Source: Schmidtea polychroa
Lineage: Eukaryota
Direction: 5' to 3'
Assembly (NCBI GenBank): GCA_044892525.1
Contig: CM097885.1
Coordinates: forward strand, 124,001-188,000
Length of the DNA stretch: 64,000 nt
Below the pieces are notes generated by a model. That model did no database searches. It was not told the origin of the DNA and saw nothing but the letters and a program-made list of their open reading frames with translations. The translations under genes were made by a program, and so were the position numbers. Shown one piece after another: positions 5,095 to 61,260 of the stretch (position 1 is the stretch's first letter; every line of letters begins with the position of its first letter).

Positions 5095-6616
5095 AGTAGT
5101 AGGATGTGGGCTCCCCAGACCAGGTCCCCTCCAGACCACATATACCCCCTCCCCCCCCCCCCCGGGAAAAAAAATTTTTTTTTTAAATTAAAGGTCAAGG
5201 TCATTTATTTTTTTTTTTAATTTTTTGTTTTAATTAATTGGCCGGGATGGCCCCTACTTTTTTTCATCCCAAAAATTAATGTTCCCGCCAACGGATTTTA
5301 TTGGACGATACCTCATCTTAAAGCTCAGTCCAAGACCTTTCGAATGAGCTATAGGTATCTTATATATCTTTAATAGTTTTAATGTTATTAACAATTGATG
5401 ACCACCATCTTTTCAACGTTAAATTATTATTATTTTCCAAAATATTATTAATTGGCCGGGAGGGCCCCTACTTTTTTTCATCCCAAAATTTAATGTTCCC
5501 ATTATCCGAATTTATTGATCGATATCTTATTTTGAAGCTTAGTGCAAGTCCTTTCGAATGAGCTATTGAAGGTATCATCATCATTAACATCGGCAAAGTT
5601 ATTAACGTTTTCCCGAGACCATTTTCAAGGTCATTTATTTTTTAAAATATTATTAAGTGATCTGGCGGGCTCACACTTTTTTTCATCCCAAAAATTAATG
5701 TTCCCATTATCCGAATTTATTAACCGATACCTCATCTTAAAGCTCAGTCCAAGACCTTTCGAATGAGCCATAGAAGGTATCATCATCATTATTATTAACA
5801 AAGAGAATGAGTCACCCAATGACTCACCCAACGATGCCTAATATTTTTAGAACGATGCCTAATATTTTTAGAATGATTACGTCATAATTTTAGAACGATG
5901 TCTATTATTTTTAGAACGATGCCTAATATTTTTAGAACGATTACGTCATACTTTTAGAACGATGCCTAATATTTTAAGAACGATGCCTAATATTTTTAGA
6001 ACAATGCCACATATTTTTAGAACTATTACGTAATTTTTTTTTTAATTAAGTGGCCGGGATGGCCCCTATTTTTTTCATCCCAATAATTAATGTTTCCGCC
6101 AACGGATTTTATTGGACGATACCTTATTTTAAAGCTCTGTGCAAGACCTTTCTAATGAGATATAGATTTCTATCATACAATGACTCATCACATTTTTAGA
6201 ACAAAGACAATGACTCATCATAATTTTAGAACGATGCCTAATATTTTAAGAACGATTACGTCATACTTTTAGAACGACGCCTCATATTTTTAGAACGATG
6301 CCTAATATTTTTAGAACTATTACGTAATCGATGTCTAATATTTTTAGAACGATGCCTAATATTTTTAGAACGATTACGTCATACTTTTAGAACGATGCCT
6401 AATATTTTTAGAACGATGCCAAATATTTTTAGAATGATTACGTCATACTTTTAGAACGAAGCCTAATATTTTTAGAATTAATAATTTTGTTTTAATTATC
6501 GATGATTATATAATTTTGTTTAAATCATTGATTATATAATTCTTTTGTTTTAATTTTCGAATACGTAATAATATAATTTTGTTTAAATCGTTGATTACAT
6601 ATTATTATTTTCTAAG

Positions 6617-6664
<48 letters not shown>

Positions 6665-6815
6665 CATATATACACCGAGTCTATCCGACAAGATATTCTG
6701 TCCCCCTATGGGTACTGCACACAAATGTACTACTCACATTCAACAAGTCACAAGGGTACTGCTCACACTCAATATGTCGTAAATTATTATTATTATTATT
6801 TCAAATACAAGTTCA

Positions 6816-6855
<40 letters not shown>

Positions 6856-6870
6856 TCAAATACAAGTTCA

Positions 6871-6946
<76 letters not shown>

Positions 6947-7308
6947 TATTATTACGCGCACGGGGAATATTATTATCATATATACTCTTAATCTATCCGA
7001 CAAAATATTCTATCCCTTTATGGGTATTGCTCATATGGGTAATGGTCAAAGGTGTACTACTCACATTCAACATGTCTCAAAGGGTATAATATAATTATTA
7101 TTAAATTCTGACCAACTTAAATCAATGAAGGGGTAGAACAAAAATATATTAAGTTGCGGTATTTTAAATTTAAAAATATTTTAAAAACTTATTTTGACAC
7201 TAAAGTTTACTTAATTAACAAAGACATAATTATTGCACATGCTTTGCATAAATATTATTATTTTTTAAATTTTCAATATTTTCTTTTAAAGTATTAACAC
7301 GCGCGGGA

Positions 7309-7386
<78 letters not shown>

Positions 7387-7421
7387 GTTAATGAAAAATC
7401 TAAAATATGGTTTACACACAC
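5095..7421 (+). repeat. Left terminal inverted repeat (~2.3 kb)
   Basis: Reverse complement of 11686-13986. Mirrored ORFs in the track (5631-5831 vs 13256-13456) are identical. Confidence 0.95.
5831..6478. repeat. Two blocks of 21-24 bp tandem subrepeats (AATATTTTTAGAACGATGCCT / TTTTAGAACGATTACGTCAT) within the TIR; mirrored at ~12545-13255
   Basis: Directly visible tandem units. Confidence 0.9.
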
Positions 7422-9732
7422 ACACAATAATTTTACAATAATTTTTACAAAAATTAAATAATAATAACTTGATTATTGTAAAAACTCTAATTATTAACCT
7501 AACTGTCATTAAAAATATTATTATTTAAAAGTAAATTTAAAAACAAGTCAATAAAATATAGCAAATTATCAAGAAATTAATTAAATTTTTGTAAAAATTA
7601 TTGTAAAATATACTGAAATTTGTGATTTTGAAAGATATATCACGTTATAATTGCTATATAATTAGCTGAATCGATGAAGAATTATGATCAATCGATATAT
7701 TTCATTTCTAGTTAGGTATTTGATGGTAAATGTGGTGAAATATTTGTAGAAAATATTGATTTTAGTAAATTTTGATTTTTTTAATGGGCTCTTACTACAT
7801 GAATTTAGATACTAAATTATTTCAATGGAAGGATGTCTGTAACAAATAAATAAAATTCATATTTTGAAGAATTTTCTATGGATTTTAAGAGAATTGATAT
7901 ATTAAAGGTCTGATATATTAAAGTCGGTTGGTTAAGATGGTAATATATGATTTTTAAGGTGTTTAAAATGATAGAAATATTTGGTGGAAATGTTTAAAAT
8001 CTCTATTTAAATCGACAATGTTCTTATTGGTAAAATTTTAAAGGGAAATAGTCAGTATTTAGCTATGAATTAATAATAATTCCAGTGAACTTATATCGTT
8101 TTAGAGGTTTATTAGGTTGTGATGAATGTTATTGCACAGTAATTTAGATTTATGTTTTAGAACCAGTTTTATATTAATTATCCACTGTTTTATTAAGTCG
8201 TTTAGGGTTAATGATCAATTTACTTGGTTTTCACAATGAAATATTTGAAATCTTTAGAATTAATTGGGATTGATATCAAAGGTTATTGCTTTAAATTAAT
8301 TTACTTAAGAAGTTATTTTATTCATTGTGGGGACATCAGTGACAAAACTTGAGAAATATTGACTTAAAAGTTGGAAATCGACAACGGCTAAAGAAAATTT
8401 AACTTTATTGAAGGAATTTTATGATTTTAATTAGAAATTAAATCGGTTGAATATTAAAGGTAAAATCTATTGAAGGAATATTATTATCGGATGGATAAGT
8501 GATATTTTGCTAAATTACCTTTGCTAAATATTATTTTAAATGACTAAAAATAACAAAATTAACCAATATTCATAAATTTATCGCACAAAATATCCATGTT
8601 TTGGTTACTCAAAAATCTTAAATTTCTCGCAAAGATATATTACGTCTAATGATCATCTAATTAAATTAGAAAAGAATTGTTACTTTATAATATATATTTC
8701 TAACTAATAAGCCCCTTATTTGGTTAAATGATAACCATATTTCTATTATGACTCCTTTAATTATTTTTGCCTCAAACAAATTTACTCTAAATGATAAAGA
8801 ATTTAAAATTATCAATGAATAATGACCATGTTTTTCTCATATTATTAGCTATTGTAACGAACATTAGATGAATAAATTACCTTTTGCTTTAAATGACTAC
8901 AAAGTTAACCAATAAATTAGTCGCTCGACATAAGTGTAAAGTTACATTTAAAATATTCACAAATTTCTGATTATCTTACATAAGAATTTCTAAATGATTA
9001 ATATTGCGACTTGTTGAGTGTGACCAGTACCCTTGCTAGCAATACCCATAGGGGGACAGAATATTTTGTCGGATAAACTAGGAGTATATGGTCTTTATTG
9101 ATATATCAAAATACTGTTATTTATAAATCAACTAAAAATACTCAAAAATACTATATTATTTTACTGAATGATACCTTAAATGTTTTTAATATACATATTT
9201 CTAAAATAAATCAACAGTTCAAACCAACAACATGTATGGATGACCACCCATTGTTAATTTATTTCCAGTGTCACGTCCCTCAAAAATACCGTGAGTGTTT
9301 TAACAAAGCTGAGCTCAAAGAAACTTTCCAGATAACAACTCACCTGAATGTTTTGAACAAAAATGAGCGAAATTGAGAACAAACGATTAGATGGCGATTA
9401 ACTTCTGGCCACAACCCTAACAACATGAAAATTAAGATTTTAATTATTGAATTCGTTGTTTTCTGCCTGGAAATACTAACAGAATATTTTTTAATTCAAA
9501 GAATCTTCATTATAAATTTTTGAATTTAAAAAATTAAATTAAGGATAAGTGTACATAAAATTATAATATTATAATATTATATAAAATTATATAAAATTAT
9601 ACTATATAATAATATTAATGTTTAAATATGCTTAAATAACTAAAGTGTTTAAATATGTTTAAATAACTAAATTTAAATTATTTAAATATAATTCTGATAT
9701 AACGTTATTTCTTTCGTTTTAGTATCCATAAA

Positions 9733-10395
9733 GTAAGTAAATAAAGAATTTACTAAAATATTTTAATTATTTTACTTAGTAATGAAGAAAATGAATTATA
9801 TGATTATGAAGAAGATGAACAAAATGGTGAAACACTAAATGACTTATGTTCTGGATTTAGAGATTTCTTATTAAAACATGAATTATAGAAGAAAATGAAC
9901 CAGACAAAATGGTGAAACATTGCTATGTTCTGGATTTCTTAAATGAATTAGCTGATTGTGGGTGTCCTTCAACATGAATTATCAGACTTAAATTATGTAA
10001 ACTTTCAACGAATGTCAAGAAAAATGGGAAAAAACCGATGTTTTATCAATAAGATATTGTAAAGTACTACCTGAAGAATATTATTATTAATGTAAGACAT
10101 GAATTAATTGTTTAAAATATATATATTATATTTAGGTATCTGTGTTTTATGGTGGGAAATGACATTGAAAAAGTATACCACAAATAACAGTTGCCTAATT
10201 TATCAAGCCTGTGACGATAAAATGCTAGATAATGTAAGTTAATTGCTTTTAAATCAATATAAATTTTAGCAATGATAGTTGACGCCGCATCAGAAACTAA
10301 GAAATACGTCCAATTTGCAAGATGTATTCCAAATGGCCCGATGGAGATGATAATTTTGAGATAGATTACCAGCAGAAGAGCGAGAAAAATTTGTA
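9733..10395 (+). pseudogene. Probable decayed multi-exon gene with mini-introns, product unknown
   Basis: GT..AG AT-rich segments at 9733-9779, 10092-10135 and 10234-10269 separate more coding-like blocks. I could not recover a continuous frame. Confidence 0.3.
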
Positions 10396-10440
10396 AATTA
10401 AATATAATAGGGTTGGGTGGGTCCTCTTTATCCCTTAATT

Positions 10441-10780
10441 AATATATATTTACAAGCTGATCGTCGTGGTGGGCGGTTGTAATCCAACTAGTGGGAGGCC
10501 TCTGTAAATATATATTTGTGTTATTGAAAACATTAATTAATTTGGTTATAGTGCCAATGACGCATGTATTTTGAAATTATACGTTTCGAATGTGCTGGTA
10601 GTTGACTACCCATGCTAGGCGTAATGTTCCGTACGGAAAGCTATAATGCCCAGGTTCTTCTGACCCCACTTGGGGGAGGCACAGACGACCCTTGTGGACG
10701 CGAACAAATATCCACCGTGTCTTTCAGGCACAGATATTTGGTCACTGCTCATTAGGCCTGGCAATACTAAATGCATTAAC
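10441..10780 (+). ncRNA. Candidate structured RNA with an SRP (7SL) Alu-domain-like fold at 10456-10499 followed by a multibranched domain
   Basis: GCT-GATCGTC-gtggtg-GGCGGTT-GTAA-TCC-aactagtg-GGA-GGC fits the two-hairpin, UGU-turn Alu 5' domain. Many further stems run to ~10775. No SRP S-domain helix 8 recognised. Confidence 0.55.
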
Positions 10781-11130
10781 TTTGCCTTGTCCTCTCTTGT
10801 CTTGATTTTTATCATTTAAATATAAAAGTGTGTGTGATAAGTTTTATTTACTAACCCTAATTAATATACCCTTGCGATATGTTGAATGTGAGTAGTACCT
10901 TTGTGAGCAATACCCATAGGGGGACAGAATATTTTGTCGGATAGACTAGGAGTAAATACACCCATGTTAAACAAGGTATGTGTATATAGAATGTGTGTGT
11001 AAAATTATCGCTCCTTATTGACAACTTCCTGTAAAGGCAAACACAGAATACTGCAAACATAATAATACTCTACCCCATAACTTAGTATGTAAAAATTATT
11101 TAAGGTTTTTTCACTAATAATAATAATAAT

Positions 11131-11169
<39 letters not shown>

Positions 11170-11172
<3 letters not shown>

Positions 11173-11700
11173 GTTTAATGGGTTGTGTGTGTGTGTAAAA
11201 ATATTTGAGGTTTTCACGAATATTGATAATAATAATGGTTTATGAGTGTTTTTATGTTTTTGACTAATATTTGCAATAATAATAATGGTTAATGGGTTGT
11301 GTGTGTGTGTAAAAAAAATATTTTAGGTTTTCACTAATATTGATAATAATAATGGTTAATGAGTGTTTTTATGTTTTTGACTAATATTTGCAATAATAAT
11401 AATGGTTAATGGGTTGTGTGTGTGTGTGTAGAAAATATTTTAGGTTTTCACTAATAATGATAATAATAATGGTTGAGGGGTTGTGTGTGTGTGTAGAAAA
11501 TATTTTAGGTTTTTAATATTGATAATATTAATAATAATGGTTGAGGGGTTGTGTGTGTGTGTAAAAAATATTTTAGGTTTTCACTAATAATGATAATAAT
11601 AATGGTTAATAAGTTGTGCATGTGTGTGTGTGTAGAAAATATTTTATGTTTTTAATTTTGATAATAATAATAATGGTTGAGGGGTTGTGTGTGTAAACCA
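11170..11700. repeat. Minisatellite of ~55-65 bp units (AATAATGGTT..GGGTTG(TG)n..AAAATATTTTAGGTTTT)
   Basis: Directly visible tandem units abutting the right TIR. Confidence 0.85.
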
Positions 11701-11721
11701 TATTTTAGATTTTTCATTAAC

Positions 11722-11766
<45 letters not shown>

Positions 11767-12128
11767 TCCCGCGCGTGTTAATACTTTAAAAGAAAATATT
11801 GAAAATTTAAAAAATAATAATATTTATGCAAAGCATGTGCAATAATTATGTCTTTGTTAATTAAGTAAACTTTAGTGTCAAAATAAGTTTTTAAAATATT
11901 TTTAAATTTAAAATACCGCAACTTAATATATTTTTGTTCTACCCCTTCATTGATTTAAGTTGGTCAGAATTTAATAATAATTATATTATACCCTTTGAGA
12001 CATGTTGAATGTGAGTAGTACACCTTTGACCATTACCCATATGAGCAATACCCATAAAGGGATAGAATATTTTGTCGGATAGATTAAGAGTATATATGAT
12101 AATAATATTCCCCGTGCGCGTAATAATA

Positions 12129-12201
<73 letters not shown>

Positions 12202-12352
12202 TGAACTTGTATTTGAAATAATAATAATAATAATTTACGACATATTGAGTGTGAGCAGTACCCTTGTGACTTGTTGAATGTGAGTAGTACATTTGTGTGC
12301 AGTACCCATAGGGGGACAGAATATCTTGTCGGATAGACTCGGTGTATATATG

Positions 12353-12406
<54 letters not shown>

Positions 12407-13986
12407 CTTAGAAAATAATAATATGTAATCAACGATTTAAACAAAATTATATTATTACGTATTCGAAAATTAAAACAAAAGAATTATATAATCAATGATT
12501 TAAACAAAATTATATAATCATCGATAATTAAAACAAAAATATTAATTCTAAAAATATTAGGCTTCGTTCTAAAAGTATGACGTAATCATTCTAAAAATAT
12601 TTGGCATCGTTCTAAAAATATTAGGCATCGTTCTAAAAGTATGACGTAATCATTCTAAAAATATTTGGCATCGTTCTAAAAATATTAGGCATCGTTCTAA
12701 AAGTATGACGTAATCGTTCTAAAAATATTAGGCATCGTTCTAAAAATATTAGACATCGATTACGTAATAGTTCTAAAAATATTAGGCATCGTTCTAAAAA
12801 TATGAGGCGTCGTTCTAAAAGTATGACGTAATCGTTCTAAAAATATTAGGCATCGTTCTAAAATTATGATGAGTCATTGTCTTTGTTCTAAAAATGTGAT
12901 GAGTCATTGTATGATAGAAATCTATATCTCATTAGAAAGGTCTTGCACAGAGCTTTAAAATAAGGTATCGTCCAATAAAATCCGTTGGCGGAAACATTAA
13001 TTATTGGGATGAAAAAAATAGGGGCCATCCCGGCCACTTAATTAAAAAAAAAATTACGTAATAGTTCTAAAAATATGTGGCATTGTTCTAAAAATATTAG
13101 GCATCGTTCTTAAAATATTAGGCATCGTTCTAAAAGTATGACGTAATCGTTCTAAAAATATTAGGCATCGTTCTAAAAATAATAGACATCGTTCTAAAAT
13201 TATGACGTAATCATTCTAAAAATATTAGGCATCGTTCTAAAAATATTAGGCATCGTTGGGTGAGTCATTGGGTGACTCATTCTCTTTGTTAATAATAATG
13301 ATGATGATACCTTCTATGGCTCATTCGAAAGGTCTTGGACTGAGCTTTAAGATGAGGTATCGGTTAATAAATTCGGATAATGGGAACATTAATTTTTGGG
13401 ATGAAAAAAAGTGTGAGCCCGCCAGATCACTTAATAATATTTTAAAAAATAAATGACCTTGAAAATGGTCTCGGGAAAACGTTAATAACTTTGCCGATGT
13501 TAATGATGATGATACCTTCAATAGCTCATTCGAAAGGACTTGCACTAAGCTTCAAAATAAGATATCGATCAATAAATTCGGATAATGGGAACATTAAATT
13601 TTGGGATGAAAAAAAGTAGGGGCCCTCCCGGCCAATTAATAATATTTTGGAAAATAATAATAATTTAACGTTGAAAAGATGGTGGTCATCAATTGTTAAT
13701 AACATTAAAACTATTAAAGATATATAAGATACCTATAGCTCATTCGAAAGGTCTTGGACTGAGCTTTAAGATGAGGTATCGTCCAATAAAATCCGTTGGC
13801 GGGAACATTAATTTTTGGGATGAAAAAAAGTAGGGGCCATCCCGGCCAATTAATTAAAACAAAAAATTAAAAAAAAAATAAATGACCTTGACCTTTTATT
13901 TAAAAAAAAAAAATTTTTTCCCGGGGGGGGAGGGGGTATATGTGGTCTGGAGGGGACCTGGTCTGGGGAGCCCACATCCTACTACT
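11686..13986 (-). repeat. Right terminal inverted repeat (~2.3 kb)
   Basis: Reverse complement of 5095-7421; differences are mainly in repeat copy number. Confidence 0.95.
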
Positions 13987-47016: not shown

Positions 47017-47950
47017 AGTAGTGTGTATATATACCCAACCCAAACAGCCCTCCCAACAAAAACATACCTCCATTACGCTTAAACCATTAGAAAAACAACA
47101 TAAAACCTATGTTTTTATAGTATTTTAATCCCATATTTTAAACAACAACCACCCTTAATCTTTAAAGCCTCAAACTCAAAAGCTTAAAACTAAAAAGAGA
47201 ATAGAAAAGAAAATGGCCTTATGAAAAAGTTAGAGGGCTATTTGGGATAGGGCTATATACACACTACTGATCGCAATGAAATTATTATTGATTTTAAATT
47301 ATATAAATTAAAAAATAAATGAAAAATAGTAAAACTGCTCTGAGGGGACAGTGGTATTTTTTTTTTTTTTTTTCACTGTCCCCTCAACAGTTTTTTTGAT
47401 CCGGATCATTTCAACCTCTTTCGTTTATCAAATCTCTTCTAATATACAAGCTGGCCAGACTCATACATCAGAATCAATCCGATAATAGCAGCACGCCTTA
47501 TTATTCGCTTCTCGCTCACGAAGTCGATTTCAACGGCGTTTTAAGCGTGCTGCTCGAAAGTACAAATGAATTCGAAAGCGAATCCGAAAGAGGTCCGAAA
47601 ACAACTGAGAAAGGGATCGATCCGGGGGTGTTCCAAAGACAGGTGGCGATAATTACCGGTTCGCCACCATCACCCGTTTCAATAAATTTTTTTTCATATT
47701 TATGTTTAAAAATAAAATAATAAATAAAATAAATAAAATAAATAAAATAAATAAAATAAAATAAAATAAAATAAAAATAAATAAAATAAAATATAAATCT
47801 AAGATAATCACACTATTATTTTCAAATTTTTAATATTATTTTATGTTGAAAAATAAACTAACCACAGTTAGGATTTGAACCGCTATCCATTTGAACCACG
47901 GTGCCGGTCTAGCCCACTGCGCTATCTAGGATTGGATTTTTGTCATTTTT
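47017..47950 (+). repeat. Left TIR (imperfect)
   Basis: Reverse-complement similarity to ~61390-62360. Confidence 0.88.
47849..47932 (-). ncRNA. Pol III type-2 (tRNA-like) unit in the left TIR
   Basis: A-box TAGCGCAGTGG, B-box GGTTCAAATCC (plus a second GGTTCAAATGG) and a T-rich end. Confidence 0.6.
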
Positions 47951-48178
47951 TAGACTATAAATAATCGATTCAAGTTCTTTAACTCTTTCCTGTAATTGTT
48001 TCATTTTCTTCAATCTTATATCAGCAACATCTACAGCCTTCATATAAAAATGTCGATACTTTTCATTATCTACCATCAACTCTTTGATGTATTCTAATGG
48101 TTCTTCTTCTCTTCTTTTCATTCTCTTATGTTTAACTTCATTCAATTCATTTCGCATTCTTTCTTTTAACTCATCCAT
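47909..48178 (-). CDS. Small coiled-coil hypothetical protein (89 aa)
   Basis: ATG in A-rich context and E/K/R-rich heptad pattern; no family recognised. Confidence 0.45.
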   Translation of the reverse strand: MDELKERMRNELNEVKHKRMKRREEEPLEYIKELMVDNEKYRHFYMKAVDVADIRLKKMKQLQERVKELESIIYSLKNDKNPILDSAVG

Positions 48179-48339
48179 TTTTATAAATATTTTTTTATTG
48201 GATATATTAATTTTTGGTAGCTTAAGTTAAAACGTTTTTGATCTTAAATTTCCAAGAGTTGCCGTTGACCAATCTCCTTAAAAATTTGTACAAGTACTAA
48301 ATCGAGTATGCTGATCAATATTTCGTTAATAAAAATTTG

Positions 48340-48418
48340 AAAAAAAATGACCGAAATGGGATTTGAACCCATTGGTATTGGCAATGCAGTCGAGTGCTAT
48401 TACCACTAAGCTATACTC
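48340..48418 (-). ncRNA. tRNA-derived (Cys-like) Pol III unit
   Basis: GTATAGCTTAGTGGTAATAGCACTCGACTGCA...GGGTTCAAATCCC followed by T8. D-arm, CT-GCA and T-loop resemble tRNA-Cys, but the anticodon and acceptor stems do not close. Confidence 0.65.
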
Positions 48419-48559
48419 AATATGAAATAAGTTGTTAATGTGTGACTATTTATTGATGAAATTAATAATTAATTATTCATTTTCTCGACAACTACCACTC
48501 AGATCCATCTGAAAATTTAAATATATACTAAAATCAGTACGCTGAATCAGATTCCGTTG

Positions 48560-48649
48560 AAAAAAAAATATCGAAACCAAAATCGAAAATTGAACCCGGT
48601 ACTCCCGGTGATAAAATTGAAGCCTATTCCCACTCCGCTATAATGGCTT
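48560..48649 (-). ncRNA. Pol III type-2 (tRNA-like) unit, divergent
   Basis: A-box TAGCGGAGTGG, degenerate B-box GGTTCAATT and T9 terminator. Confidence 0.5.
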
Positions 48650-48703
48650 ACATAATATATTTAATTAATCCTATTGTGTGTGTGTAAATTTTAATATATA
48701 AAA

Positions 48704-49996
48704 ATGAATAATATAAATCTTAAAATTCAAGAAAAAAATAAATTAAATCTTGATTATAATAAAGAATTTACTCATGAAATCAAGAAAAACGATGTACTTA
48801 AAATCTCCCCAACTTCAGGATCTATTGCAAACTTAAATCGTAGGGGTGATATAGTTTTTCAATCTCTTCAAACATCAAACCCTATAGATATTTGTAATGC
48901 TAAATTATATTATAAAATCGAATTAGAAATTGAAGCAAACAAAGATATAACCCTAGAAAATAATTTCTTTCCAAATTTATTCTCCAACATGAGATTAAAA
49001 CTAGGATCATCAGAAATTGAAACTGTTTTGCAGCCGGGAGTATATTCTACAATGTTAAATTTTATTTTGACTGGTTGTGATTATAAAAACGAATATGGTG
49101 AATTAACAGGTTGGATTCCTGATATTAATAAAGGGGATTTAGATAAAGATGGTTTAGATGTAAACCATGGTTACCATAAAAGAGCTGAACTTTATAAATC
49201 TAAAAAATTTGAAGGTTATTTTGAATTAAAACACTTGTTTGGATTCCTTCAAAACTATAATCGTATACTTCATAATGTTTTTATAGAATTCATCTGTAAT
49301 AGAGTAGAAGGTGATAAAAGATTGTTCTATGGAGCTGCAGATACAAAAGCTAAATTAAAATTATCAACACTTGAATTACATATACCTGAATGGACATTAA
49401 ACCCACATTCTGAGATTAAACTCCTTGAAAGATTAAATTCCAACAAGTCTATAAATGTAAATTATTTAAATAGAATCTGTAGTGAATTTAGTATGACAGA
49501 GGGTTCAACATATTCTATAAAGGTAGCAAATTTAGCATACCGACCAAGATATATCTTGATTGGATTCAAAGAAGTAGATTCATCTTTCCAAAAAAATAAC
49601 AACTTGTTTATTCAAAAGATTGGAGTTGATAATTTAAAAACAATCCAAATTCAATTAAATAGTTCTTATTATCCAATAAATAGAATGGAATTTAATATTG
49701 AAAATAATGAAAACATATTCCCATATCTAAATTATATTGAAACATGTTATGATTTCAAAATTGAACCGCAATTAAGTTTAGAAGATTTCAAAAATTTATA
49801 TTCTATATTTTGTATAAATGTTTCAGACCAAGATGATCGCCTAGCCATAAATAATGTTGATGTTACACTTCATGTAACAAAGGATTCTAATTTTAAAGCT
49901 AAAGTATATACATTAATATTAGAAGAAAAGAAAATAGAAATGAAATTATATGGTGGAAAGATTTCAATAATCGAAAATGTTAGGGGAGATTCTTGA
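48704..49996 (+). CDS. Polinton major capsid protein (hexon-like double jelly-roll)
   Basis: 430 aa intact. NNFFPNLFSNMRLKLG..IE..QPG, LKHLFGF..Y, RPRYILIGF and LNSSYYP motifs; element context. Confidence 0.85.
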   Translation: MNNINLKIQEKNKLNLDYNKEFTHEIKKNDVLKISPTSGSIANLNRRGDIVFQSLQTSNPIDICNAKLYYKIELEIEANKDITLENNFFPNLFSNMRLKLGSSEIETVLQPGVYSTMLNFILTGCDYKNEYGELTGWIPDINKGDLDKDGLDVNHGYHKRAELYKSKKFEGYFELKHLFGFLQNYNRILHNVFIEFICNRVEGDKRLFYGAADTKAKLKLSTLELHIPEWTLNPHSEIKLLERLNSNKSINVNYLNRICSEFSMTEGSTYSIKVANLAYRPRYILIGFKEVDSSFQKNNNLFIQKIGVDNLKTIQIQLNSSYYPINRMEFNIENNENIFPYLNYIETCYDFKIEPQLSLEDFKNLYSIFCINVSDQDDRLAINNVDVTLHVTKDSNFKAKVYTLILEEKKIEMKLYGGKISIIENVRGDS

Positions 49997-50025
49997 TATA
50001 ATCCCTGATATTTTAACATTTTAAA

Positions 50026-51435
50026 ATGTCTCTAAATAAATATTGGAGATGTGAAAGTTGTAATTGTCAAGTTACAAGACATCATAAAGCAAGTCATTTA
50101 AAAACTAAAAAACATACAGGAGGTGATCTAATTCCACGAGCTGGAGGCGATTTGCAATCTTCAAAAACAACATCTTCAATATTAAAACCTTTTACTACAG
50201 AAAAATATCCAGGTGAAAGACATTTATTTAAACACAACTATACTGGACCAGGAACACGTCTAGATATTAGATTAGATGAAAATAATAATCCCAAACAAGG
50301 AGAAGAACCAATAAATAGAATTGATCAAGCAGCTTTAAAACATGACATTGCATACAATTCAACAAATCTTAGAGATAGACATGTTGCAGATGTGAATTTA
50401 ATACATGATTTAAATAGTATCCAAAATCCATCAACCCAAGAAAAGATTCAAAGAGCTCTAGTTAAATTAGCAATGAAAGGTAAGATTTTCATAGGCTTAG
50501 GACACAGTCCGATCACCATGGGTGCAAGACTTCCTAGGAAAGCAAAAGATGTTGCTTATAAAAAGATTATCGAACAAGCAGAGATTGAAAGATCCCTCGA
50601 GAGTACAGCCAAGACTAGTTTACAAACCCCAACAGAATCAGAAATAAAATATGCAAAGGAATTACACCATGAATTTAGAAAAAATAAAAAATATTTAAAA
50701 GTTCAAGTACATGAAAAAGATCAAACATGGTCTGCAGATTTAGTCTTTATGCCCAAATCATCAGACCCTGAAAAATATAAAATAATTTTAACTGTAATAG
50801 ATTTATATACAAGATTTGCTTTTGCAAGATGTTTAGAAAATAAAACAGGATATTCTATTACAGAAGCATTTGAAAATATATTTGAAGAAAATCAAAGAAT
50901 CCCAAAATATTTATGGTGTGATAAAGGAACAGAATTTTATAACAAAGTTTTTACAAAGTTTTTAAATGAAAATGATATTAAATTATATTCAACAGAAAAC
51001 GAAGGAAAAGCAGTCGTAGTTGAAAGATTAAATAGAACATTAAAAAATAAAATGTGGAAATATTTTACTGCTATTGGAAAACAAAAATGGAACAATGAAT
51101 TGTTACAAAAGATTGTAAATGAATATAATAATGATGTACATAGTTCTATAAAATTAACACCTTTAAATGCTTCCATGAAGCCTGAAACCATTAAAGTGGT
51201 AAATATTGAAAATGATGTTATTGAAAAACCAAAGTTTAAAATTGGTGACCGAGTAAGAATATTTAAATATAAAAATAAATTTGAAAAAGGATTCACAGCA
51301 AAATGGACAAATGAAATTTTTATTATAAATAAAATACATTATACAACTCCAATAACATATACCATCTTTGATTTAAATAATGAAAAAATATTAGGTAGAT
51401 TTTATAATAATGAACTACAGAAAACAGATTTTTAA
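50026..51435 (+). CDS. Fusion protein: C2H2-like zinc finger + parvovirus-type PLA2 + retroviral-like (rve) integrase
   Basis: CESC..HLKTKKH; NYTGPG..IDQAALKHDIAY..AD; WSADL..IDLYTRF..CDKGTEF..VERLNRTLK (DDE intact); ends GRFYNNELQ with no chromodomain. Confidence 0.93.
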   Translation: MSLNKYWRCESCNCQVTRHHKASHLKTKKHTGGDLIPRAGGDLQSSKTTSSILKPFTTEKYPGERHLFKHNYTGPGTRLDIRLDENNNPKQGEEPINRIDQAALKHDIAYNSTNLRDRHVADVNLIHDLNSIQNPSTQEKIQRALVKLAMKGKIFIGLGHSPITMGARLPRKAKDVAYKKIIEQAEIERSLESTAKTSLQTPTESEIKYAKELHHEFRKNKKYLKVQVHEKDQTWSADLVFMPKSSDPEKYKIILTVIDLYTRFAFARCLENKTGYSITEAFENIFEENQRIPKYLWCDKGTEFYNKVFTKFLNENDIKLYSTENEGKAVVVERLNRTLKNKMWKYFTAIGKQKWNNELLQKIVNEYNNDVHSSIKLTPLNASMKPETIKVVNIENDVIEKPKFKIGDRVRIFKYKNKFEKGFTAKWTNEIFIINKIHYTTPITYTIFDLNNEKILGRFYNNELQKTDF

Positions 51436-51446
51436 GTCGACAAGCC

Positions 51447-52238
51447 CTAAAACAAACTTTTCCATATTTCAGCTTCTTCTCTATCCAAATAAATATAATT
51501 ATATTTTTCTTTCCAATGATTATCAACAAACATATCAAACATATTCTTATCAGGTTCAACATTTGAAAATAAATCATTATAAATCATATTCTTATCACGG
51601 CGATCTAATTTAAAAAATATAAAACAATTGGAATTATTTCTTATTGAATTTTTATCTAAAGCATAATATGTTTGAGATATATAAATAACATTACAATTAT
51701 TATGTCGACCTCGTGTAAAGTAACTCTTTTGAATCTCTTGATTTTTCATATTAACAACATCATCAAATATAACTAGATTCTTTTTATCTTTAGGAAGTAA
51801 ATCACAATGTATAACATCTTCAGGTTTATTAGAGAATAAAACTTGAATTGCCTCCTGCCCTTCTTCACAAATATAATCATTTTTATTACTAATATCTGAT
51901 TCTAAAATCTTTTCCTTATACCAATCAACCATATCACAAGGTTGAAAAACTTCTTCAGGACACCTATGTTGATTTTTAAAAATATCAATTATTGCTTTTT
52001 TAGTTAATTTATTTTCAAATCCACATTTCAAAAGTTGTAATTCTGGTTGCTTTATGGTTGTAGAATAAAAGATAAAATTATTATAATCTAAAAAATCATC
52101 TTCAAGTAACATTCTCAAAACAAGTACATTCTTTCCACATCCAGAAGAACCAACAATTAATAATCTAAAATTATCAGGAAATACTTTATTATTAAATTTA
52201 CTCTTATGTCTATTTAAAATTGGTTTCCAAATATCCAT
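51447..52238 (-). CDS. A32/FtsK-like genome-packaging ATPase
   Basis: Walker A GSSGCGKN, Walker B LVIFDD, and FTRGRH..IYISQ..IRNN motifs. Likely start is MDIWKP at 52238. Confidence 0.92.
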   Translation of the reverse strand: MDIWKPILNRHKSKFNNKVFPDNFRLLIVGSSGCGKNVLVLRMLLEDDFLDYNNFIFYSTTIKQPELQLLKCGFENKLTKKAIIDIFKNQHRCPEEVFQPCDMVDWYKEKILESDISNKNDYICEEGQEAIQVLFSNKPEDVIHCDLLPKDKKNLVIFDDVVNMKNQEIQKSYFTRGRHNNCNVIYISQTYYALDKNSIRNNSNCFIFFKLDRRDKNMIYNDLFSNVEPDKNMFDMFVDNHWKEKYNYIYLDREEAEIWKSLF

Positions 52239-52253
52239 TTTGTTTATTATAAA

Positions 52254-52847
52254 ATGACAACTGAAGAATCTTTGCAAGAATTAATAAATTCAAATAAAAA
52301 TAAATCAGTAGTAATTGATGGTAAAAAATATTTTATTGGAAAACATGTAAAAGAACAAGTTAGAGCGAAGCTCCACGAAGCTAAAGAAGGTGGCATTCTT
52401 CCATTAGCTGCTTTAATACCTGCAATCATTGCTGGTTTATCAGGTGCTGCTGGAATAGCTGGAGGAATTGCAATTACAGTTCAAAAAGCTAAAGAATCTC
52501 AAAAGACAGACCTAGAAAAAGAAAAACTACAAACTGAAATCGATTCAATGAAGAAGGTAGGGCAAGCTAAAGGGGGAGTGTCCGTTGGAAAGGGTCTCTA
52601 TCTTAATCCATATGAGGGGAGTCGGCAAAAGTCTCAGGGCAAAGGTCTCTATCTTGATCCTTATAAAGGTAGAGGTTTAAATGATTTTTTAAAAAATCAA
52701 ATTTCTACATCTGAATCTTTATCTTTAAAAGATAAAGAAGATTTAAAAAAAATATGTAAATCTTTAAAGAATGGATGTCTTTGTAAAACTAAAAATGGCA
52801 AAGGTTTATACTTGAAGCCCTTTCCAACGGATCCTTTACCAAAATGA
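52254..52847 (+). CDS. Gly-rich hydrophobic/basic virion core or membrane-active protein
   Basis: EGGILPLAALIPAIIAGLSGAAGIAGG segment and three GKGLYL repeats, which resemble protease processing sites. Confidence 0.65.
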   Translation: MTTEESLQELINSNKNKSVVIDGKKYFIGKHVKEQVRAKLHEAKEGGILPLAALIPAIIAGLSGAAGIAGGIAITVQKAKESQKTDLEKEKLQTEIDSMKKVGQAKGGVSVGKGLYLNPYEGSRQKSQGKGLYLDPYKGRGLNDFLKNQISTSESLSLKDKEDLKKICKSLKNGCLCKTKNGKGLYLKPFPTDPLPK

Positions 52848-52869
52848 TACCATTTTTAATACCATAAAA

Positions 52870-53739
52870 ATGGTATATGAAGAAAGACTAGCACTTTTAA
52901 AAAAATTACAATCAGAACAAGATAAATATAATAAAAAAGATACAAGTCAACATGCTGAATCTTTAATATTAAATGAGGTAATAACACAACAACAGGGGCC
53001 AACAATTAAAGCTATAAAAGGATTAAATGAGCAAGCAAAATTTAAAGAGTTAGAAGATGGAGGAAGTCCCCATGAACAAAAAATAAAAAAACTAGAGTGG
53101 AAGGAAGAATCCAGTGAAAGTCATTCTGAAAGAAATCAAAGAAAACGCAGAAGAATTTCTAATGCGGAAGAAGAAGAAGAAATGTTTTTAAAAACAAAAC
53201 CTCTTAAAGTTGATCCTAAAATTAGAGATGATTTACCTCCTTCAATTAGACCCACATTTAATACTAATACTGAAGGATATCAAATAATAACAATTAATAA
53301 ACAAAACTTTACTTTATATTCAAATTCAGAAAATAAATCACGTATTCATTCACAAAATGTTTATAATAATGAATATTTAGACTTTGAATTTACAGATGAT
53401 TTTTATAAATTACTTTGTGGATATTCTTCAGATGATCTTGAAGAAATTAAAAAATATTTAAATTTAATAAGATTAATAAGAGCTGGTTCTAAAGCAAAAT
53501 ATATTCAAGATTTAAAGAATTATTTAGATAAAAATGAAAAGGGTTATGTTGTTACAGAGGGAGAGGGATTAATTAGTGAAGGAAATCCCATCAATCTTTT
53601 TATTGAATTAAGAAAACTATTAGCTGCAAGGAAAGCAGGACATAATAATTTAGATTCTGATATTTTAAAGATTTCTAAAGATTTGTTAAAACAAGGAATA
53701 ATTTCAAAAGATAAATTTAATAAGTATACGAAGTTATAA
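52870..53739 (+). CDS. Polinton hypothetical protein (289 aa)
   Basis: Intact ORF. C-terminal GEGL..ELRKLLAARKAGHNN resembles a motif I recall from Polinton structural-module proteins. Confidence 0.7.
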   Translation: MVYEERLALLKKLQSEQDKYNKKDTSQHAESLILNEVITQQQGPTIKAIKGLNEQAKFKELEDGGSPHEQKIKKLEWKEESSESHSERNQRKRRRISNAEEEEEMFLKTKPLKVDPKIRDDLPPSIRPTFNTNTEGYQIITINKQNFTLYSNSENKSRIHSQNVYNNEYLDFEFTDDFYKLLCGYSSDDLEEIKKYLNLIRLIRAGSKAKYIQDLKNYLDKNEKGYVVTEGEGLISEGNPINLFIELRKLLAARKAGHNNLDSDILKISKDLLKQGIISKDKFNKYTKL

Positions 53740-53791
53740 ATACGAAGTTATAAAATACGTAGTTTTAAAATACGAAGTTTTAAAATACAAA

Positions 53792-54256
53792 ATGACTCCT
53801 TCAATATTAGATTTTTTAAAAACATTTGGAATAAATGCAAAAACAAATTTTGATTTAAAAGATTATGCAAATTATTTAAATTTAAAAATTAAAATATTAA
53901 TGAATGATGAATTATCAAGTCTGGAGAGTCCCCTGAATATAATAATCAATTATCAAAATTCAAATGAAAAAGGATCTCATTGGGTTTGTATATATAAGAA
54001 ATCTATCTACTTTGATTCTTTTGGGATTAAACCTACTAAAGAAGTTGAAGATTATCTCTTGAGGGGTTCTCCGATTGATTCCCCAAATGGTTATACTTTT
54101 AACTCTTTACAAGTTCAACCTTTGAATACTAAAATATGTGGTATTTTAAGTTTATATGTTTTGTATAGATTGAATAAGGGAGAGGGAAAGGGGCATACGC
54201 AGGATTTTGAATCTATAATTCAAGAAATTTATAATGATCTAGAATCTCTACTATAA
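53792..54256 (+). CDS. Adenain-like cysteine maturation protease
   Basis: GSHWVCIY..YFDSFG..QVQ..ICG catalytic motifs. Confidence 0.92.
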   Translation: MTPSILDFLKTFGINAKTNFDLKDYANYLNLKIKILMNDELSSLESPLNIIINYQNSNEKGSHWVCIYKKSIYFDSFGIKPTKEVEDYLLRGSPIDSPNGYTFNSLQVQPLNTKICGILSLYVLYRLNKGEGKGHTQDFESIIQEIYNDLESLL

Positions 54257-54355
54257 GGATTTTTACTATAAGGATTTTTACTATATGAATTTACTACTAA
54301 AGAAATGGAGCTTCACAACCCTCCGGAAGATAATTTAAAAAAAATGGTAAACATA

Positions 54356-55071
54356 ATGTCAGATAAATATTCAAGAACTTTATCTATAAATTCAAAAGAA
54401 TCAGAGTTTACTATAAACTTTCAAGATTCAATTAAATTAGATCAAAATTTAAATTATGAATTGGGGCTATTATGGTTTTGTGCTTATAATACTATTTTTA
54501 TTATATAACTAAAGATAATAATAAATTTACTATTCAAACTCGTGATGGGCATAAACCAGAAATTATAACAATAGAACCTGGGGCATATGAGATAAAAGAT
54601 TTAAATGATATACTTTCTAAAAAAACAAATGAAGGTATTAAAATTAAAATGGATATACCAACTTCAAAATGTGTAATGACTTTGAAGAATATAAAAATTA
54701 GTTTTTTAGATAATTGTTTCTTTCACACAGTTTTAGGATTTAAACCTATGGATATAACAATAAAAGAAGATAAAATAATAACATCAGAACATATTATAAA
54801 AATAATAAATACAAACACAATAAATATTCATTGCGATTGTATAACAGGTTCTTATAATAATGGTAAACAAACAAATGTTTTATATTCCTTTCCCTCAAAC
54901 ACAGTTCCTATGGGATATAAAATAGTTGAAAGAATGAATCCTCCAAATTATTTACCTTTATGTAGAAAATATATAATGGATATTAATTTTAAAATTCTTA
55001 ATCAAGAAGGAGAATTGATTGATTTTAATGGAGAAGAGATTTCAATGTATTTACATTTGAAACAGGTTTGA
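54356..55071 (+). pseudogene. Minor capsid protein (penton), frameshifted near 54505
   Basis: FQDSIKLD..YELGL..YNTIF in one frame continues as TKDNNKF..IEPGAYEIKDLN..INIHCDCITGSYNNG..YLP..NQEGELIDFNGE in another. Confidence 0.85.
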
Positions 55072-55095
55072 AGATTCATTTTAAATTATTAATAA

Positions 55096-56106
55096 ATGAG
55101 TTCTTATATTCCTTGTAATAGAGGTGGTGGAACAATAAAAACAGGGTTTAATACAGAAGAAATATTAACTTTAACAGAAAATAAATATATTAATGAAAGA
55201 GGTGATTCAATGAAGGGTGATTTAATTTTAAATGGACACAAGATAAAAGAATTATCTTTTCCAACTGATGAAGCTGATGCAGTTAATAAGAAATATGTAG
55301 ATGGTGTTAAAAAATATACTGATTTAACAACAACAAGAATTGAAAGTTCATTAACAACAAAAATTGATTCAATGGAATCAAAGCTTAATAATATCGAACA
55401 ACGATTTAATGATAAATTTGACAAGTTACAAAGTCTGTTAACTGAACAAGTTGTAAAGTTAAATACTGCTATATTAAATTCTAAAGATAAACAAATTATG
55501 AATACTAAATTTAATGCAATATATAATATAATAAATGAGATGATTACATCATTTAATAAAAGAATTTCAAATTTAGAGTCTCATGGAACACACATTAACA
55601 CCACACATAGTATTAGAAAAAGAGCTGCTGAATTAGAACAGAATAAAACATTATTACCCCATACATATAAACATTTTATAGAACCAAGTTTAATAACAAC
55701 AAACAGTAAAGAATGGGGTGTTTTTATGGTTGTAAAAATTATTGATCCTTATTTCTTTTTGTTTGATGATGATAATGAAAGAATGAAATGGTTTGTGAAA
55801 TGTGATTATAATAGTAAGCTTGAAAAGGGTGATGTTATAATGACTAGTTATGATTTACCACACGGAGATTGGTATGTTAATACTCATTCACATGGACTAC
55901 ATAAAGTTAAAAGTAAGAATATTCATTTTTCTAGTTCACTTGTACAATATATAGATTTAATATTTTATGAAAAAAAGGTTGATGTTGATGAAGTTCGTAA
56001 AGCATTGAGAGAATTGTATAAAGATATCCTCTCAACAAGAGTTTCTTTTGATATCCGAGTATTGGTGCCAGATGGTGCTAAGAAGAATAAAGTCTTATTT
56101 TTTTAA
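55096..56106 (+). CDS. Fibre/spike-like protein with trimeric neck motif and coiled coil
   Basis: GDSMKGDLILNGHKI..PTDEADAVNKKYVD motif as in tail-fibre/adhesin necks, followed by heptads; located right after penton. Confidence 0.6.
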   Translation: MSSYIPCNRGGGTIKTGFNTEEILTLTENKYINERGDSMKGDLILNGHKIKELSFPTDEADAVNKKYVDGVKKYTDLTTTRIESSLTTKIDSMESKLNNIEQRFNDKFDKLQSLLTEQVVKLNTAILNSKDKQIMNTKFNAIYNIINEMITSFNKRISNLESHGTHINTTHSIRKRAAELEQNKTLLPHTYKHFIEPSLITTNSKEWGVFMVVKIIDPYFFLFDDDNERMKWFVKCDYNSKLEKGDVIMTSYDLPHGDWYVNTHSHGLHKVKSKNIHFSSSLVQYIDLIFYEKKVDVDEVRKALRELYKDILSTRVSFDIRVLVPDGAKKNKVLFF

Positions 56107-56114
56107 TTATTAAA

Positions 56115-56711: not shown

Positions 56712-56805
56712 AATGGGTGTATTTTTAAAAAAGTAGATCAGGTTGCTATAGTTGCTTAAATTAATTGTCGACATTTTATTATTAAAAAATTAAATATCGT
56801 TGGTT

Positions 56806-61110: not shown

Positions 61111-61176
61111 TTTATTTTTTAAGATTTATATTATTCATTTTTTATAATAAAAATTTAAAAAATGACAAAAAATCCA

Positions 61177-61260
61177 AACCTTGATGGCGCAGTGGGCTAG
61201 ACTGACACAGTGGTTCAAAATGCTAGCGGTTCAAATCACATCTGAGGTTAGTTTTTTTTT
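61177..61260 (+). ncRNA. Pol III type-2 (tRNA-like) unit
   Basis: A-box TGGCGCAGTGG, B-box GGTTCAAATC, T9 terminator; ends pair (AACCTTGATG/CATCTGAGGTT). Confidence 0.6.

What the first reader, a model, noticed from the sequence alone, without database searches (positions are those of the whole stretch)
10441..10516. SRP Alu-domain mimic, apparently circularly permuted, carried inside a non-autonomous Polinton
Seen: 10456-10499 folds as a closing GCT/GGC helix, hairpin GATCGTC-gtggtg-GGCGGTT, a TGTAA hinge and hairpin TCC-aactagtg-GGA. The two loops are complementary (TGGT/ACTA). The unit is enclosed by a perfect 14-bp inverted repeat (10441-10454/10503-10516). Established: this is the architecture of the SRP RNA Alu 5' domain bound by SRP9/14 (human GCCGGGCGCGGTGGCGCGTGCCTGTAGTCCCAGCTACTCGGGAGGC), whose adjoining stem normally pairs with the RNA 3' end. 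Inference: here that stem is supplied by the 5' flank, so it could be an internal SRP9/14-recruiting module in a virus-satellite transcript. I know of no such module in Polintons.
Basis: partly seen in the sequence, partly recalled or inferred. Interest (0 to 1): 0.8.

Follow-up and report, generated by a model that had tools for sequence, protein, structure and literature searches.

The report
7SL RNA head captured by Polinton-type transposon
A 44-base copy of the front end of the cell's signal-recognition-particle RNA sits in about 2,000 copies inside a gene-less, palindrome-shaped relative of Polinton transposons, still able to fold correctly, with no sign yet that it does anything there.

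Summary
Window 10456-10499 matches positions 1-44 of Rfam Metazoa_SRP (28.3 bits alone, 30.4 bits with its flank). It starts at 7SL position +1 and is flanked by a perfect 14-bp inverted repeat.

It is a 7SL-derived sequence, not an independent mimic. It is 34 of 44 identical to the host's own 7SL, which lies elsewhere as a tandem array of about 311 copies. None of the 10 differences breaks a base pair, and three helix-3 pairs changed on both sides (P about 6.5e-5).

The carrier (5095-13986) has 6-bp target duplications, AGTAGT...ACTACT ends like the autonomous Polintons nearby, long inverted arms and no genes. About 2,030 module copies exist, normally one in each arm.

No 7SL S domain or 3' domain follows the module. 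In 100 sampled copies the module region varied as much as a control stretch, no pair changed on both sides, and one subfamily breaks the flanking repeat. "Circular permutation" and SRP9/14 recruitment therefore remain untested ideas.

Best reading: a captured fragment of a functional 7SL RNA, not the resident type, amplified as a passenger.

The parts
10456..10499 (+). 7SL (SRP RNA) Alu 5'-domain copy. Helix 2 is 10456-58/10497-99. Helix 3 is 10459-65/10472-78 with loop L2. The U-turn UGUAAU is 10478-83. Helix 4 is 10483-85/10494-96 with loop L1.2.
   Evidence: Rfam RF00017 model positions 1-44, 28.3 bits. 34/44 identical to the host 7SL, with 16 of 17 tested pairs standard.
10441..10454 (.). 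Left arm of the perfect 14-bp inverted repeat (AT-rich).
   Evidence: I8; 0.2 such repeats expected per shuffled window.
10503..10516 (.). Right arm of the 14-bp inverted repeat.
   Evidence: I8. Invariant in 30 of 30 loci that were chosen by an exact module core.
10516..10566 (+). Predicted AU-rich hairpin just downstream, followed by the first T4 run (10567-10570).
   Evidence: MFE structures. No significance: z -0.5 to -1.4.
5095..13986 (.). Gene-less Polinton-type element that carries the module. TIRs are 5095-7357 and 11718-13986, the ends are AGTAGT..ACTACT, and the TSD TTTCTA lies at 5089-5094 and 13987-13992. This copy lacks the inner part of its left arm and so has one module instead of two.
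   Evidence: Every ORF called inside it (up to 157 aa stop-to-stop; three of them scanned) is without a Pfam family above its cut-off.
47017..62360 (+). Autonomous Polinton in the same window. It encodes a double-jelly-roll capsid-like protein, an rve integrase, an A32-type ATPase and a polymerase region, and its ends begin AGTAGTGTG. It has no module.
   Evidence: pPolB Pfam hit in the 70-98% similar copy of locus L062. One search lists only one module within the window.

Best explanation
Window 10456-10499 is a copy of the first 44-45 nucleotides of a signal-recognition-particle (7SL) RNA. That stretch is the Alu 5' domain: helices 2, 3 and 4 and the UGUAAU U-turn.

I infer that it entered the DNA once, most likely through an RNA or cDNA intermediate, because it begins exactly at 7SL position +1. 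The entry point was the centre of an AT-rich palindrome in the arm of a non-autonomous, palindrome-shaped Polinton-type element.

That element then multiplied, presumably using the integrase of autonomous Polintons that share its AGTAGT ends and 6-bp target duplication. The module was carried along to about 2,000 copies, one in each arm.

The module still folds like an Alu 5' domain for two inferred reasons. Its source was a working 7SL RNA of a type not present as a gene in this genome (a relative's, or an older one). And the family is young. No function of the module in the element is required or shown.
For: - **Identity.** CM match to model positions 1-44 at 28.3 bits. 34/44 identical to the host 7SL, including the 13-nt run TGTAATCCAACTA. 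Homology begins at 7SL +1 and ends at position 45.
- **Host 7SL lies elsewhere.** It forms a tandem array with period 593 bp and scores about 240 bits. A motif that excludes the module type found 314 matches. Of the 100 listed, 98 were the array type and 2 were module-type copies with a point change.
- **Differences from the host are structured.** There are 10 differences. Three helix-3 pairs changed on both sides, one pair on one side, and none is broken. Random placement gives P = 6.5e-5 for that pattern and 0.0025 for no broken pair.
- **No module-type 7SL gene outside the element.** 0 matches where the module is followed by anything other than the element's T.
- **Carrier.**
  - TIRs are 93% alike over 2.3 kb.
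  - TSD TTTCTA in the window. A second copy has TSD ACTATT and the same AGTAGT end.
  - An autonomous Polinton nested in that second copy has AGTAGTG ends, TSD GAGAAC and a pPolB.
- **Abundance.** 998 + 1032 matches at 3 or fewer mismatches, reversed control 0. 783 + 824 have both flanks exact. Modules typically come as a (-,+) pair about 7.6 kb apart inside long inverted arms.
- **Passenger behaviour.**
  - In 100 flank-anchored copies, the 65 nt 10441-10505 carry 46 changes. A control 65 nt (10696-10760) carries 43 (my counts on the listings).
  - Within the module's stems, 3 variant types keep a pair as G.U (9 copies) and 6 types break a pair (8 copies).
  - No row changed both sides of a pair.
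Against: - The structured divergence from the host 7SL could equally mean that the element itself has kept the fold under selection. My data cannot say on which lineage the compensatory changes arose.
- No donor 7SL with this helix 3 was found.
- No empty-site version of the palindrome was found, so insertion into a pre-existing palindrome is inference only.
- The family is too young for the copy-to-copy comparison to detect weak constraint: 68 of 100 rows are identical over the 65 nt.
- The features reported as needed for SRP9/14 binding are intact (PMC12265939, passages). These are the G4.U23/G24 triad, the U-turn and the complementary loops. A function is therefore not excluded.
- In a sample chosen by an exact module core, 10390-10614 showed fewer shared variants than its flanks: 2 in 225 nt against about 7 per 75 nt. 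The flank-anchored comparison did not confirm this.
Confidence: 0.6

Rival explanations
1. First reader's idea. The module is a working RNA element in a transcript of the element. Closed by the flanking 14-bp stem, a topology like the artificial circularly permuted Alu RNA, it recruits SRP9/14, for example to reach ribosomes or to damp translation.
For: - The features reported as critical are present by sequence. These are G4.U23 with G24, the UGU turn and three complementary loop-loop positions (13-15 with 32-34) (PMC12265939 and PMC8137916, passages).
- With the arms included, the MFE forms the Alu-type hairpins, z -2.79.
- A circularly permuted Alu RNA was crystallised with SRP9/14 (PMC4238359, passages).
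- The differences from the host 7SL preserve every pair.
Against: - The flanking stem is plain A/U duplex with no 3'-domain sequence. The CM gains 2.1 bits beyond position 44.
- 8 of 100 copies have C10453G in the arm with no change in its partner. 7 of these also have G10469A, which removes the loop-loop G-C pair.
- No compensatory change was seen among 100 copies, and the module varies as much as the control stretch.
- At the position I recall as human C37, partner of G13 in the crystal structure, the module has G where the host has C. The human numbering is recalled, not checked in a call.
Confidence: 0.12
2. The 7SL head serves as an RNA polymerase III start or promoter. It gives a small RNA of about 115 nt (10456 to the T4 run at 10567-10570): an Alu 5' domain plus an AU-rich hairpin, comparable to small cytoplasmic Alu/B1 RNAs.
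For: - The module starts at 7SL +1.
- The first run of four T lies at 10567-10570, after a predicted hairpin.
- The CM's best full alignment is an S-domain-deleted form ending at 10585.
- That 7SL-type genes have internal promoter elements is recalled knowledge.
Against: - The helix-5-like part adds only 2.1 bits and has several non-standard pairs.
- The 117-nt fold is no better than shuffles, z -0.51.
- The upstream sequence is unlike that of the host 7SL genes.
- One copy (L006) lacks 10559-10590.
- No RNA data were usable.
Confidence: 0.1
3. The feature works as DNA. The 76-bp interrupted palindrome forms a hairpin or cruciform, or is a protein-binding site, that matters for replication or integration of the element. 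On this reading its 7SL ancestry is incidental.
For: - A perfect 14-bp inverted repeat is unexpected by chance.
- The repeat extends imperfectly to 10437-10455 / 10524-10542 (I3).
- The feature is present in both arms of the element.
Against: - The arm variant C10453G is uncompensated in 8 of 100 copies.
- The autonomous Polintons lack the feature.
- There is no conservation beyond the control stretch.
Confidence: 0.06
4. The whole 10456-10810 is a decayed full-length 7SL copy, of which only the head is still recognisable.
For: - There is colinear weak similarity of 10504-10815 to the rest of the host 7SL. The local alignment score is 40, against 27.1 +/- 5.3 for other window segments. The empirical fraction scoring at least as high is 0.015 to 0.04.
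- A T5 run lies at about 10806-10810.
Against: - There is no SRP hit in 10500-10840 at E <= 10.
- The CM prefers deleting 194 model positions.
- The similarity is of borderline significance and heavily gapped.
Confidence: 0.1

Closest known systems
Alu 5' domain of metazoan SRP (7SL) RNA (Rfam RF00017, positions 1-44)
   Same: Same helices 2, 3 and 4, the same UGUAAU turn and complementary loops. 34/44 identical to the host's own 7SL. Starts at position +1.
   Different: It lacks helix 5, the 3' domain and the S domain. It scores 28-30 bits against a gathering score of 70. It is embedded in a transposon in about 2,000 copies. It differs from the resident 7SL by 10 structured changes.
7SL-derived SINEs (SINE1: Alu, B1, hagfish SINE1-1_EBu)
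   Same: A mobile element carrying a 7SL-derived Alu-domain sequence that keeps its base pairing (PMC7245038, abstract and Discussion).
   Different: SINE1 elements keep both the 5' and 3' parts of 7SL, have a LINE-type tail and move by retrotransposition. They are reported only from Euarchontoglires and hagfish (PMC7245038). Here only the 5' 44 nt are present, always in the same internal position of a DNA element with TIRs and 6-bp TSDs. No free-standing copies were found.
Non-autonomous Polinton/Maverick derivatives
   Same: 6-bp TSD, 5'-AG..CT-3' ends and long TIRs. The terminal AGTAGT is shared with autonomous copies that encode pPolB, an rve integrase, an A32-type ATPase and a double-jelly-roll protein. 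That these are the Polinton hallmarks is recalled knowledge.
   Different: The element is almost entirely two arms of about 6.2 kb around a spacer of about 0.5 kb, about 12.9 kb in all. It has no recognisable Polinton gene remnants and it carries a 7SL fragment. I found no paper linking Polintons and 7SL modules.
SA86, the artificial circularly permuted human Alu RNA crystallised with SRP9/14
   Different: SA86 contains the genuine 3' domain of helix 5. Here the enclosing stem is an unrelated AT-only duplex, and it is not conserved in one subfamily.

Membership tests
Metazoan SRP RNA (RF00017) | Score at or above the curated gathering threshold (70 bits) | tested here: not met
   30.4 bits and 28.3 bits for positions 1-44. 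No hit at gathering threshold in the window. The host genes score about 240 bits.
Metazoan SRP RNA (RF00017) | S domain (helices 6 and 8) present | tested here: not met
   No SRP match in 10500-10840 at E <= 10. The CM deletes 194 positions.
SRP Alu 5' domain (SRP9/14-binding fold) | Helices 2, 3 and 4 with standard pairs | tested here: met
   All 13 stem pairs that are standard in the host are standard in the module. G11/G16 is non-standard in both.
SRP Alu 5' domain (SRP9/14-binding fold) | U-turn triad G4.U23 plus G24 within UGU (PMC12265939, PMC8137916 passages) | tested here: met
   G10459, T10478 and G10479 are present, and UGUAAU is identical to the host. 1 of 100 copies has T10478A.
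SRP Alu 5' domain (SRP9/14-binding fold) | Complementary bases in loops L2 and L1.2 for the loop-loop pseudoknot | tested here: inconclusive
   Positions 13-15 can pair with 32-34 (G.U, G-C, U-A) in both module and host. The position I recall as the partner of G13 in the human crystal structure is G in the module and C in the host. 7 of 100 copies have G14 changed to A.
SRP Alu 5' domain (SRP9/14-binding fold) | Binding of SRP9/14 | not testable with these tools
   There is no RNA-protein tool. Six-frame searches for SRP14 and SRP9 in the genome found nothing and their controls rang nowhere, so they say nothing.
SRP Alu domain, complete (5' plus 3' domain) | [quoted passage not shown] | tested here: not met
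   Only 2.1 bits are gained beyond position 44. The flanking 14-bp stem is AT-only and unrelated in sequence.
SINE1 (7SL-derived SINE) | Free-standing short retroposon with a 7SL head, a LINE-related or A-rich tail and variable flanks | tested here: not met
   1,607 copies have both element flanks exact, against 2,030 module cores at 3 or fewer mismatches (two separate searches). 0 copies are followed by anything other than the element's own next base.
Polinton/Maverick (non-autonomous) | 6-bp target site duplication | tested here: met
   TTTCTA and ACTATT in a second copy, so 2 of 2 copies with both ends found. A third locus gave no clear terminus.
Polinton/Maverick (non-autonomous) | 5'-AG..CT-3' ends and TIRs resembling those of autonomous copies | tested here: met
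   The AGTAGT start is shared by the element, the window's autonomous Polinton and the nested one.
Polinton/Maverick (non-autonomous) | Lacks pPolB and integrase, while autonomous partners with them exist in the genome | tested here: met
   No Pfam family above its cut-off for the three ORFs scanned inside 5095-13986. Partners carry DJR, rve, A32 and pPolB.

The most novel reading that the evidence does not exclude
A Polinton-derived palindromic element has taken over the Alu 5' domain of 7SL RNA as a working part, and keeps its fold by selection. The part could be an SRP9/14-binding module in its transcripts or the head of a Pol III-made small RNA. The three compensatory helix-3 changes relative to the host 7SL would be the trace of that selection. 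This would be the first 7SL-derived functional module in a DNA transposon or virus-like element, and outside vertebrates.
Probability: 0.15. Interest if true: 0.75.

Novelty: new variant of a known kind. Interest (0 to 1): 0.4.

Why it matters
Mobile elements built around the 7SL Alu domain are reported only as retroposons of some mammals and hagfish (PMC7245038). In those, the fold is thought to help capture the LINE machinery at the ribosome.

Finding the same RNA head, structurally intact, in about 2,000 copies of a DNA element of the Polinton class shows that 7SL fragments can also be captured and spread by virus-like DNA transposons. The host is an AT-rich animal genome of 781 Mb.

If the fold is maintained by selection, it would point to an RNA-level interaction between such elements and the host translation or targeting machinery.

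If it is a passenger, it is still useful in two ways. It marks the history of the element, because its helix 3 does not match the resident 7SL, which hints at a donor other than the present host gene. It is also a caution for 7SL and Alu-like annotation.

Tried and rejected
- **RNA evidence.** No RNA holder listed. The runs laid were contigs of uncertain kind, labelled 'RNA?' as a guess. I draw nothing on expression from them.
- **Conservation valley.** In 28 loci chosen by an exact 35-nt core, 10390-10614 had 2 shared-variant sites, against about 7 per 75 nt around it. I dropped two loci with unrelated flanks (L042, L047). I reject this as evidence. The sample was conditioned on the core, and the flank-anchored comparison showed equal variation: 46 versus 43 changes per 100 x 65 nt.
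- **Covariation among copies.** This was not informative. 68 of 100 rows were identical and no double changes occurred.
- **Donor search.** No module-type 7SL gene was found in the genome. There were 0 exact matches in IMG/VR and 0 in metagenome contigs.
- **Relaxed 7SL motif in IMG/VR.** This gave one contig. The match (18.6 bits) lies inside a 434-aa ORF of a GC-rich, phage-like contig and is a chance match.
- **Empty site.** 0 matches for the palindrome without the insert.
- **SRP9 and SRP14 genes.** The six-frame searches found nothing and their controls rang nowhere. They are uninformative.
- **Own covariance model.** Model R1 over the whole window with filters off gave only the module itself at 64.8 bits. 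The next hits, at 10.4 bits or less and E >= 1.8, I treat as chance.
- **Whole-window Rfam scan** at E <= 1. The SRP hit was lost to the filters, and only a sub-threshold tRNA-like hit appeared.
- **Earlier findings of this scan.** Nothing was returned.
- **Huck et al. 2004** (PMC519120) is not held. The G13-C37 / G14-C34 numbering is therefore recalled.

Full report
**1. What is in the sequence**

Window 10441-10516 reads AATATATATTTACA-A-[44 nt]-CTC-TGTAAATATATATT. The two 14-nt arms are perfectly complementary (I8).
- Among perfect 14-bp inverted repeats with a spacer of 100 nt or less, this is the only one that is not a microsatellite in the 60 of 232 hits printed.
- Block shuffles gave 0.2 such repeats per window.

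- With the arms included, the RNA MFE (-21.8 kcal/mol, z -2.79) shows both hairpins.
- The 48-nt core alone is thermodynamically unremarkable, z +0.61.

**2. It is a 7SL head**

Rfam found nothing at gathering thresholds in the window. A sensitive scan of 9800-11300 gave Metazoa_SRP at 10456-10585 with 30.4 bits and E 1e-5, with the first 44 model positions aligned at top posterior.

Scanning only 10448-10506 gave 28.3 bits for model positions 1-44. Everything after position 44 therefore adds 2.1 bits.
- No SRP match exists in 10500-10840 at E <= 10.
- A local alignment of 10504-10815 to the rest of the host 7SL is colinear but weak, with an empirical fraction of 0.015-0.04.
- I therefore call only the 5' domain 7SL-derived.

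**3. The host's real 7SL**

The genome is 781 Mb, and the window is C1:124001-188000. It holds full-length 7SL genes of about 240 bits in a tandem array with a 593-bp period.

A motif that excludes the module type found 314 matches. Of the 100 listed, 98 were the array type and 2 were module-type copies with a point change.

The module is 34/44 identical to the host head. It begins at the same +1, and the similarity stops after position 45.

Of the 10 differences:
- six make up three helix-3 pairs that changed on both sides (5-22, 6-21, 10-17);
- one turns C-G into U.G;
- three lie in loops;
- none breaks a pair.

Random placement of 10 changes gives P = 0.0025 for no broken pair, and P = 6.5e-5 for three or more double changes with none broken.

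The module is therefore not a decaying copy of the resident gene. Somewhere between the two sequences the fold was under selection.

No module-type head is followed by anything other than the element's own sequence (0 matches).

**4. The carrier**

The module lies in an element spanning 5095-13986.
- Its TIRs are 5095-7357 and 11718-13986, 93% alike.
- Its ends are AGTAGT..ACTACT, with a 6-bp duplication TTTCTA.
- It has no ORF with a Pfam family above its cut-off.

The module core occurs 998 + 1032 times in the genome at 3 or fewer mismatches, with a reversed control of 0. 783 + 824 copies have both flanks exact. The usual pattern is a (-,+) pair about 7.6 kb apart.

Two other loci show the canonical form:
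- One is an 8.4-kb inverted duplication at 98.9% identity with a 667-bp spacer.
- The other is a 27.9-kb element with TSD ACTATT and the same AGTAGT ends.
  - Its right arm is interrupted by a 14.9-kb autonomous Polinton with AGTAGTG ends and TSD GAGAAC.
  - That nested Polinton has a 1473-aa pPolB, Pfam DNA_pol_B_2 at E 1.7e-14.
  - Without the nested Polinton, the element would be about 12.9 kb: two arms of about 6.2 kb with a module in each.

The window copy has lost the inner part of its left arm, and with it one module.

The window also holds an autonomous Polinton at 47017-62360, which has no module. It encodes:
- a double-jelly-roll protein;
- an rve integrase with a PLA2-like domain;
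- an A32-type ATPase;
- a polymerase region.

"Non-autonomous Polinton" is thus supported by the hallmarks. That these are the Polinton hallmarks is recalled knowledge.

**5. Is the module under constraint within the family?**

A first look at 28 loci suggested a valley of variation at 10390-10614. Those loci had been selected by an exact module core, so I repeated the test in a matched way. I took the first 100 copies along C1, anchored only on exact flanks, for the module stretch and for a control stretch 200 nt downstream.

By my count of the listings:

| Stretch | Changes in 100 x 65 nt | Rows identical to the window |
|---|---|---|
| 10441-10505 (module region) | 46 | 68 |
| 10696-10760 (control) | 43 | 63 |

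There is no extra conservation.

Within the 44 nt there are 12 variant types:

| Effect | Variants | Types | Copies |
|---|---|---|---|
| Keep a pair as G.U | C10457T, C10485T, C10499T | 3 | 9 |
| Break a pair | G10456A, A10460T, G10463A, T10478A, G10494A, G10497T | 6 | 8 |
| Unpaired positions | G10466A, G10469A, G10471A | 3 | 12 |

- No row changes both sides of a pair.
- A subfamily of 7 of 100 rows combines C10453G in the left repeat arm with G10469A in loop L2. An eighth row has C10453G alone.
- In all 8 rows the partner G10504 is unchanged.

After insertion, copies therefore behave neutrally, and the flanking stem is not protected.

**6. Interpretation**

*Shown:*
- homology to the 7SL head;
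- structured divergence from the resident 7SL;
- Polinton-type carrier;
- high copy number;
- no detectable copy-level constraint.

*Inferred:*
- RNA-mediated capture, because the module starts at +1;
- insertion into a pre-existing AT-rich palindrome, because the flanks extend the palindrome imperfectly (I3), although no empty site was found;
- a donor 7SL other than the resident type.

Both module and host share U15 and A32 where the Rfam consensus has C and G. This suggests a donor related to the host lineage.

The features that the literature gives as needed for SRP9/14 binding are intact (PMC12265939 and PMC8137916, passages). A circularly permuted Alu RNA was crystallised with the protein (PMC4238359, passages).

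**7. Literature**

- Full-text searches for Polinton with 7SL gave 11 papers, of which 10 were listed. Judged from titles and abstract starts, these were general repeat surveys and reviews.
- Maverick with "SRP RNA" and transposon gave none.
- 7SL-derived SINEs are described only from Euarchontoglires and hagfish (PMC7245038, abstract and Discussion read).
- I saw no report of a 7SL module in a Polinton-class element. These searches cover open-access full text only.

**8. Verdict**

- The feature is real and, as far as my searches reach, unreported.
- Its most likely status is a captured, hitch-hiking 7SL head.

Noticed in passing
window 21793-45077: Satellite array with a monomer of about 1,245 bp. 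Each monomer holds a 286-nt segment about 81% similar to the Polinton region just upstream of the capsid-like ORF (equivalent to window ~48222-48498).
   Followed up: partly
window 48348-48418 (-): tRNA-like match at 26.7 bits, just under Rfam's cut-off of 29, inside the autonomous Polinton upstream of the capsid-like ORF. ARAGORN finds no tRNA in the window.
   Followed up: no
window 50017-51432 (+): The Polinton integrase ORF (rve core) also carries a phospholipase A2-like domain (PF08398, E 4.4e-9), an unusual pairing.
   Followed up: no
window 45949-47079 (+): 377-aa ORF with proteasome-subunit and ubiquitin domains and a 78-nt tandem repeat. It overlaps the left end of the autonomous Polinton by about 60 nt.
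   Followed up: no
window 62954-63616 (+): ORF with two HMG boxes (E 1e-27), starting about 600 nt to the right of the autonomous Polinton.
   Followed up: no
window 14335-19220 (-): Remnants of a second, broken Polinton directly right of the module-bearing element: a pPolB fragment (E 4.4e-14) and a weak chromodomain-like match.
   Followed up: partly
window 59896-59920 (-): The polymerase ORF of the autonomous Polinton contains AATCCAACTAGTGG, a 14-mer identical to the module's helix 4 and loop, including the G that distinguishes the module from the host 7SL. By my estimate about 0.02-0.05 such matches are expected by chance.
   Followed up: partly
window 10658-10680 and 10610-10749: A 23-nt stretch 74% like the module's 3' half lies 181 nt downstream (D2). 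In one run of a second, related organism the contig depth over 10610-10749 is 30-100 times that of the neighbouring bins, hinting at a separate high-copy repeat sharing this piece. In this genome the piece has about the same copy number as the module.
   Followed up: partly
G000:C2:31.93-31.99 Mb (loci L009-L027): The host's 7SL genes form a head-to-tail array with a 593-bp period and roughly 311 copies of one sequence type.
   Followed up: partly
window 10390-10446 vs 10808-10868: Imperfect direct repeats (79-93%) spaced 418-422 nt apart bracket the block that holds the module (D1, D12). The cause is unknown.
   Followed up: no
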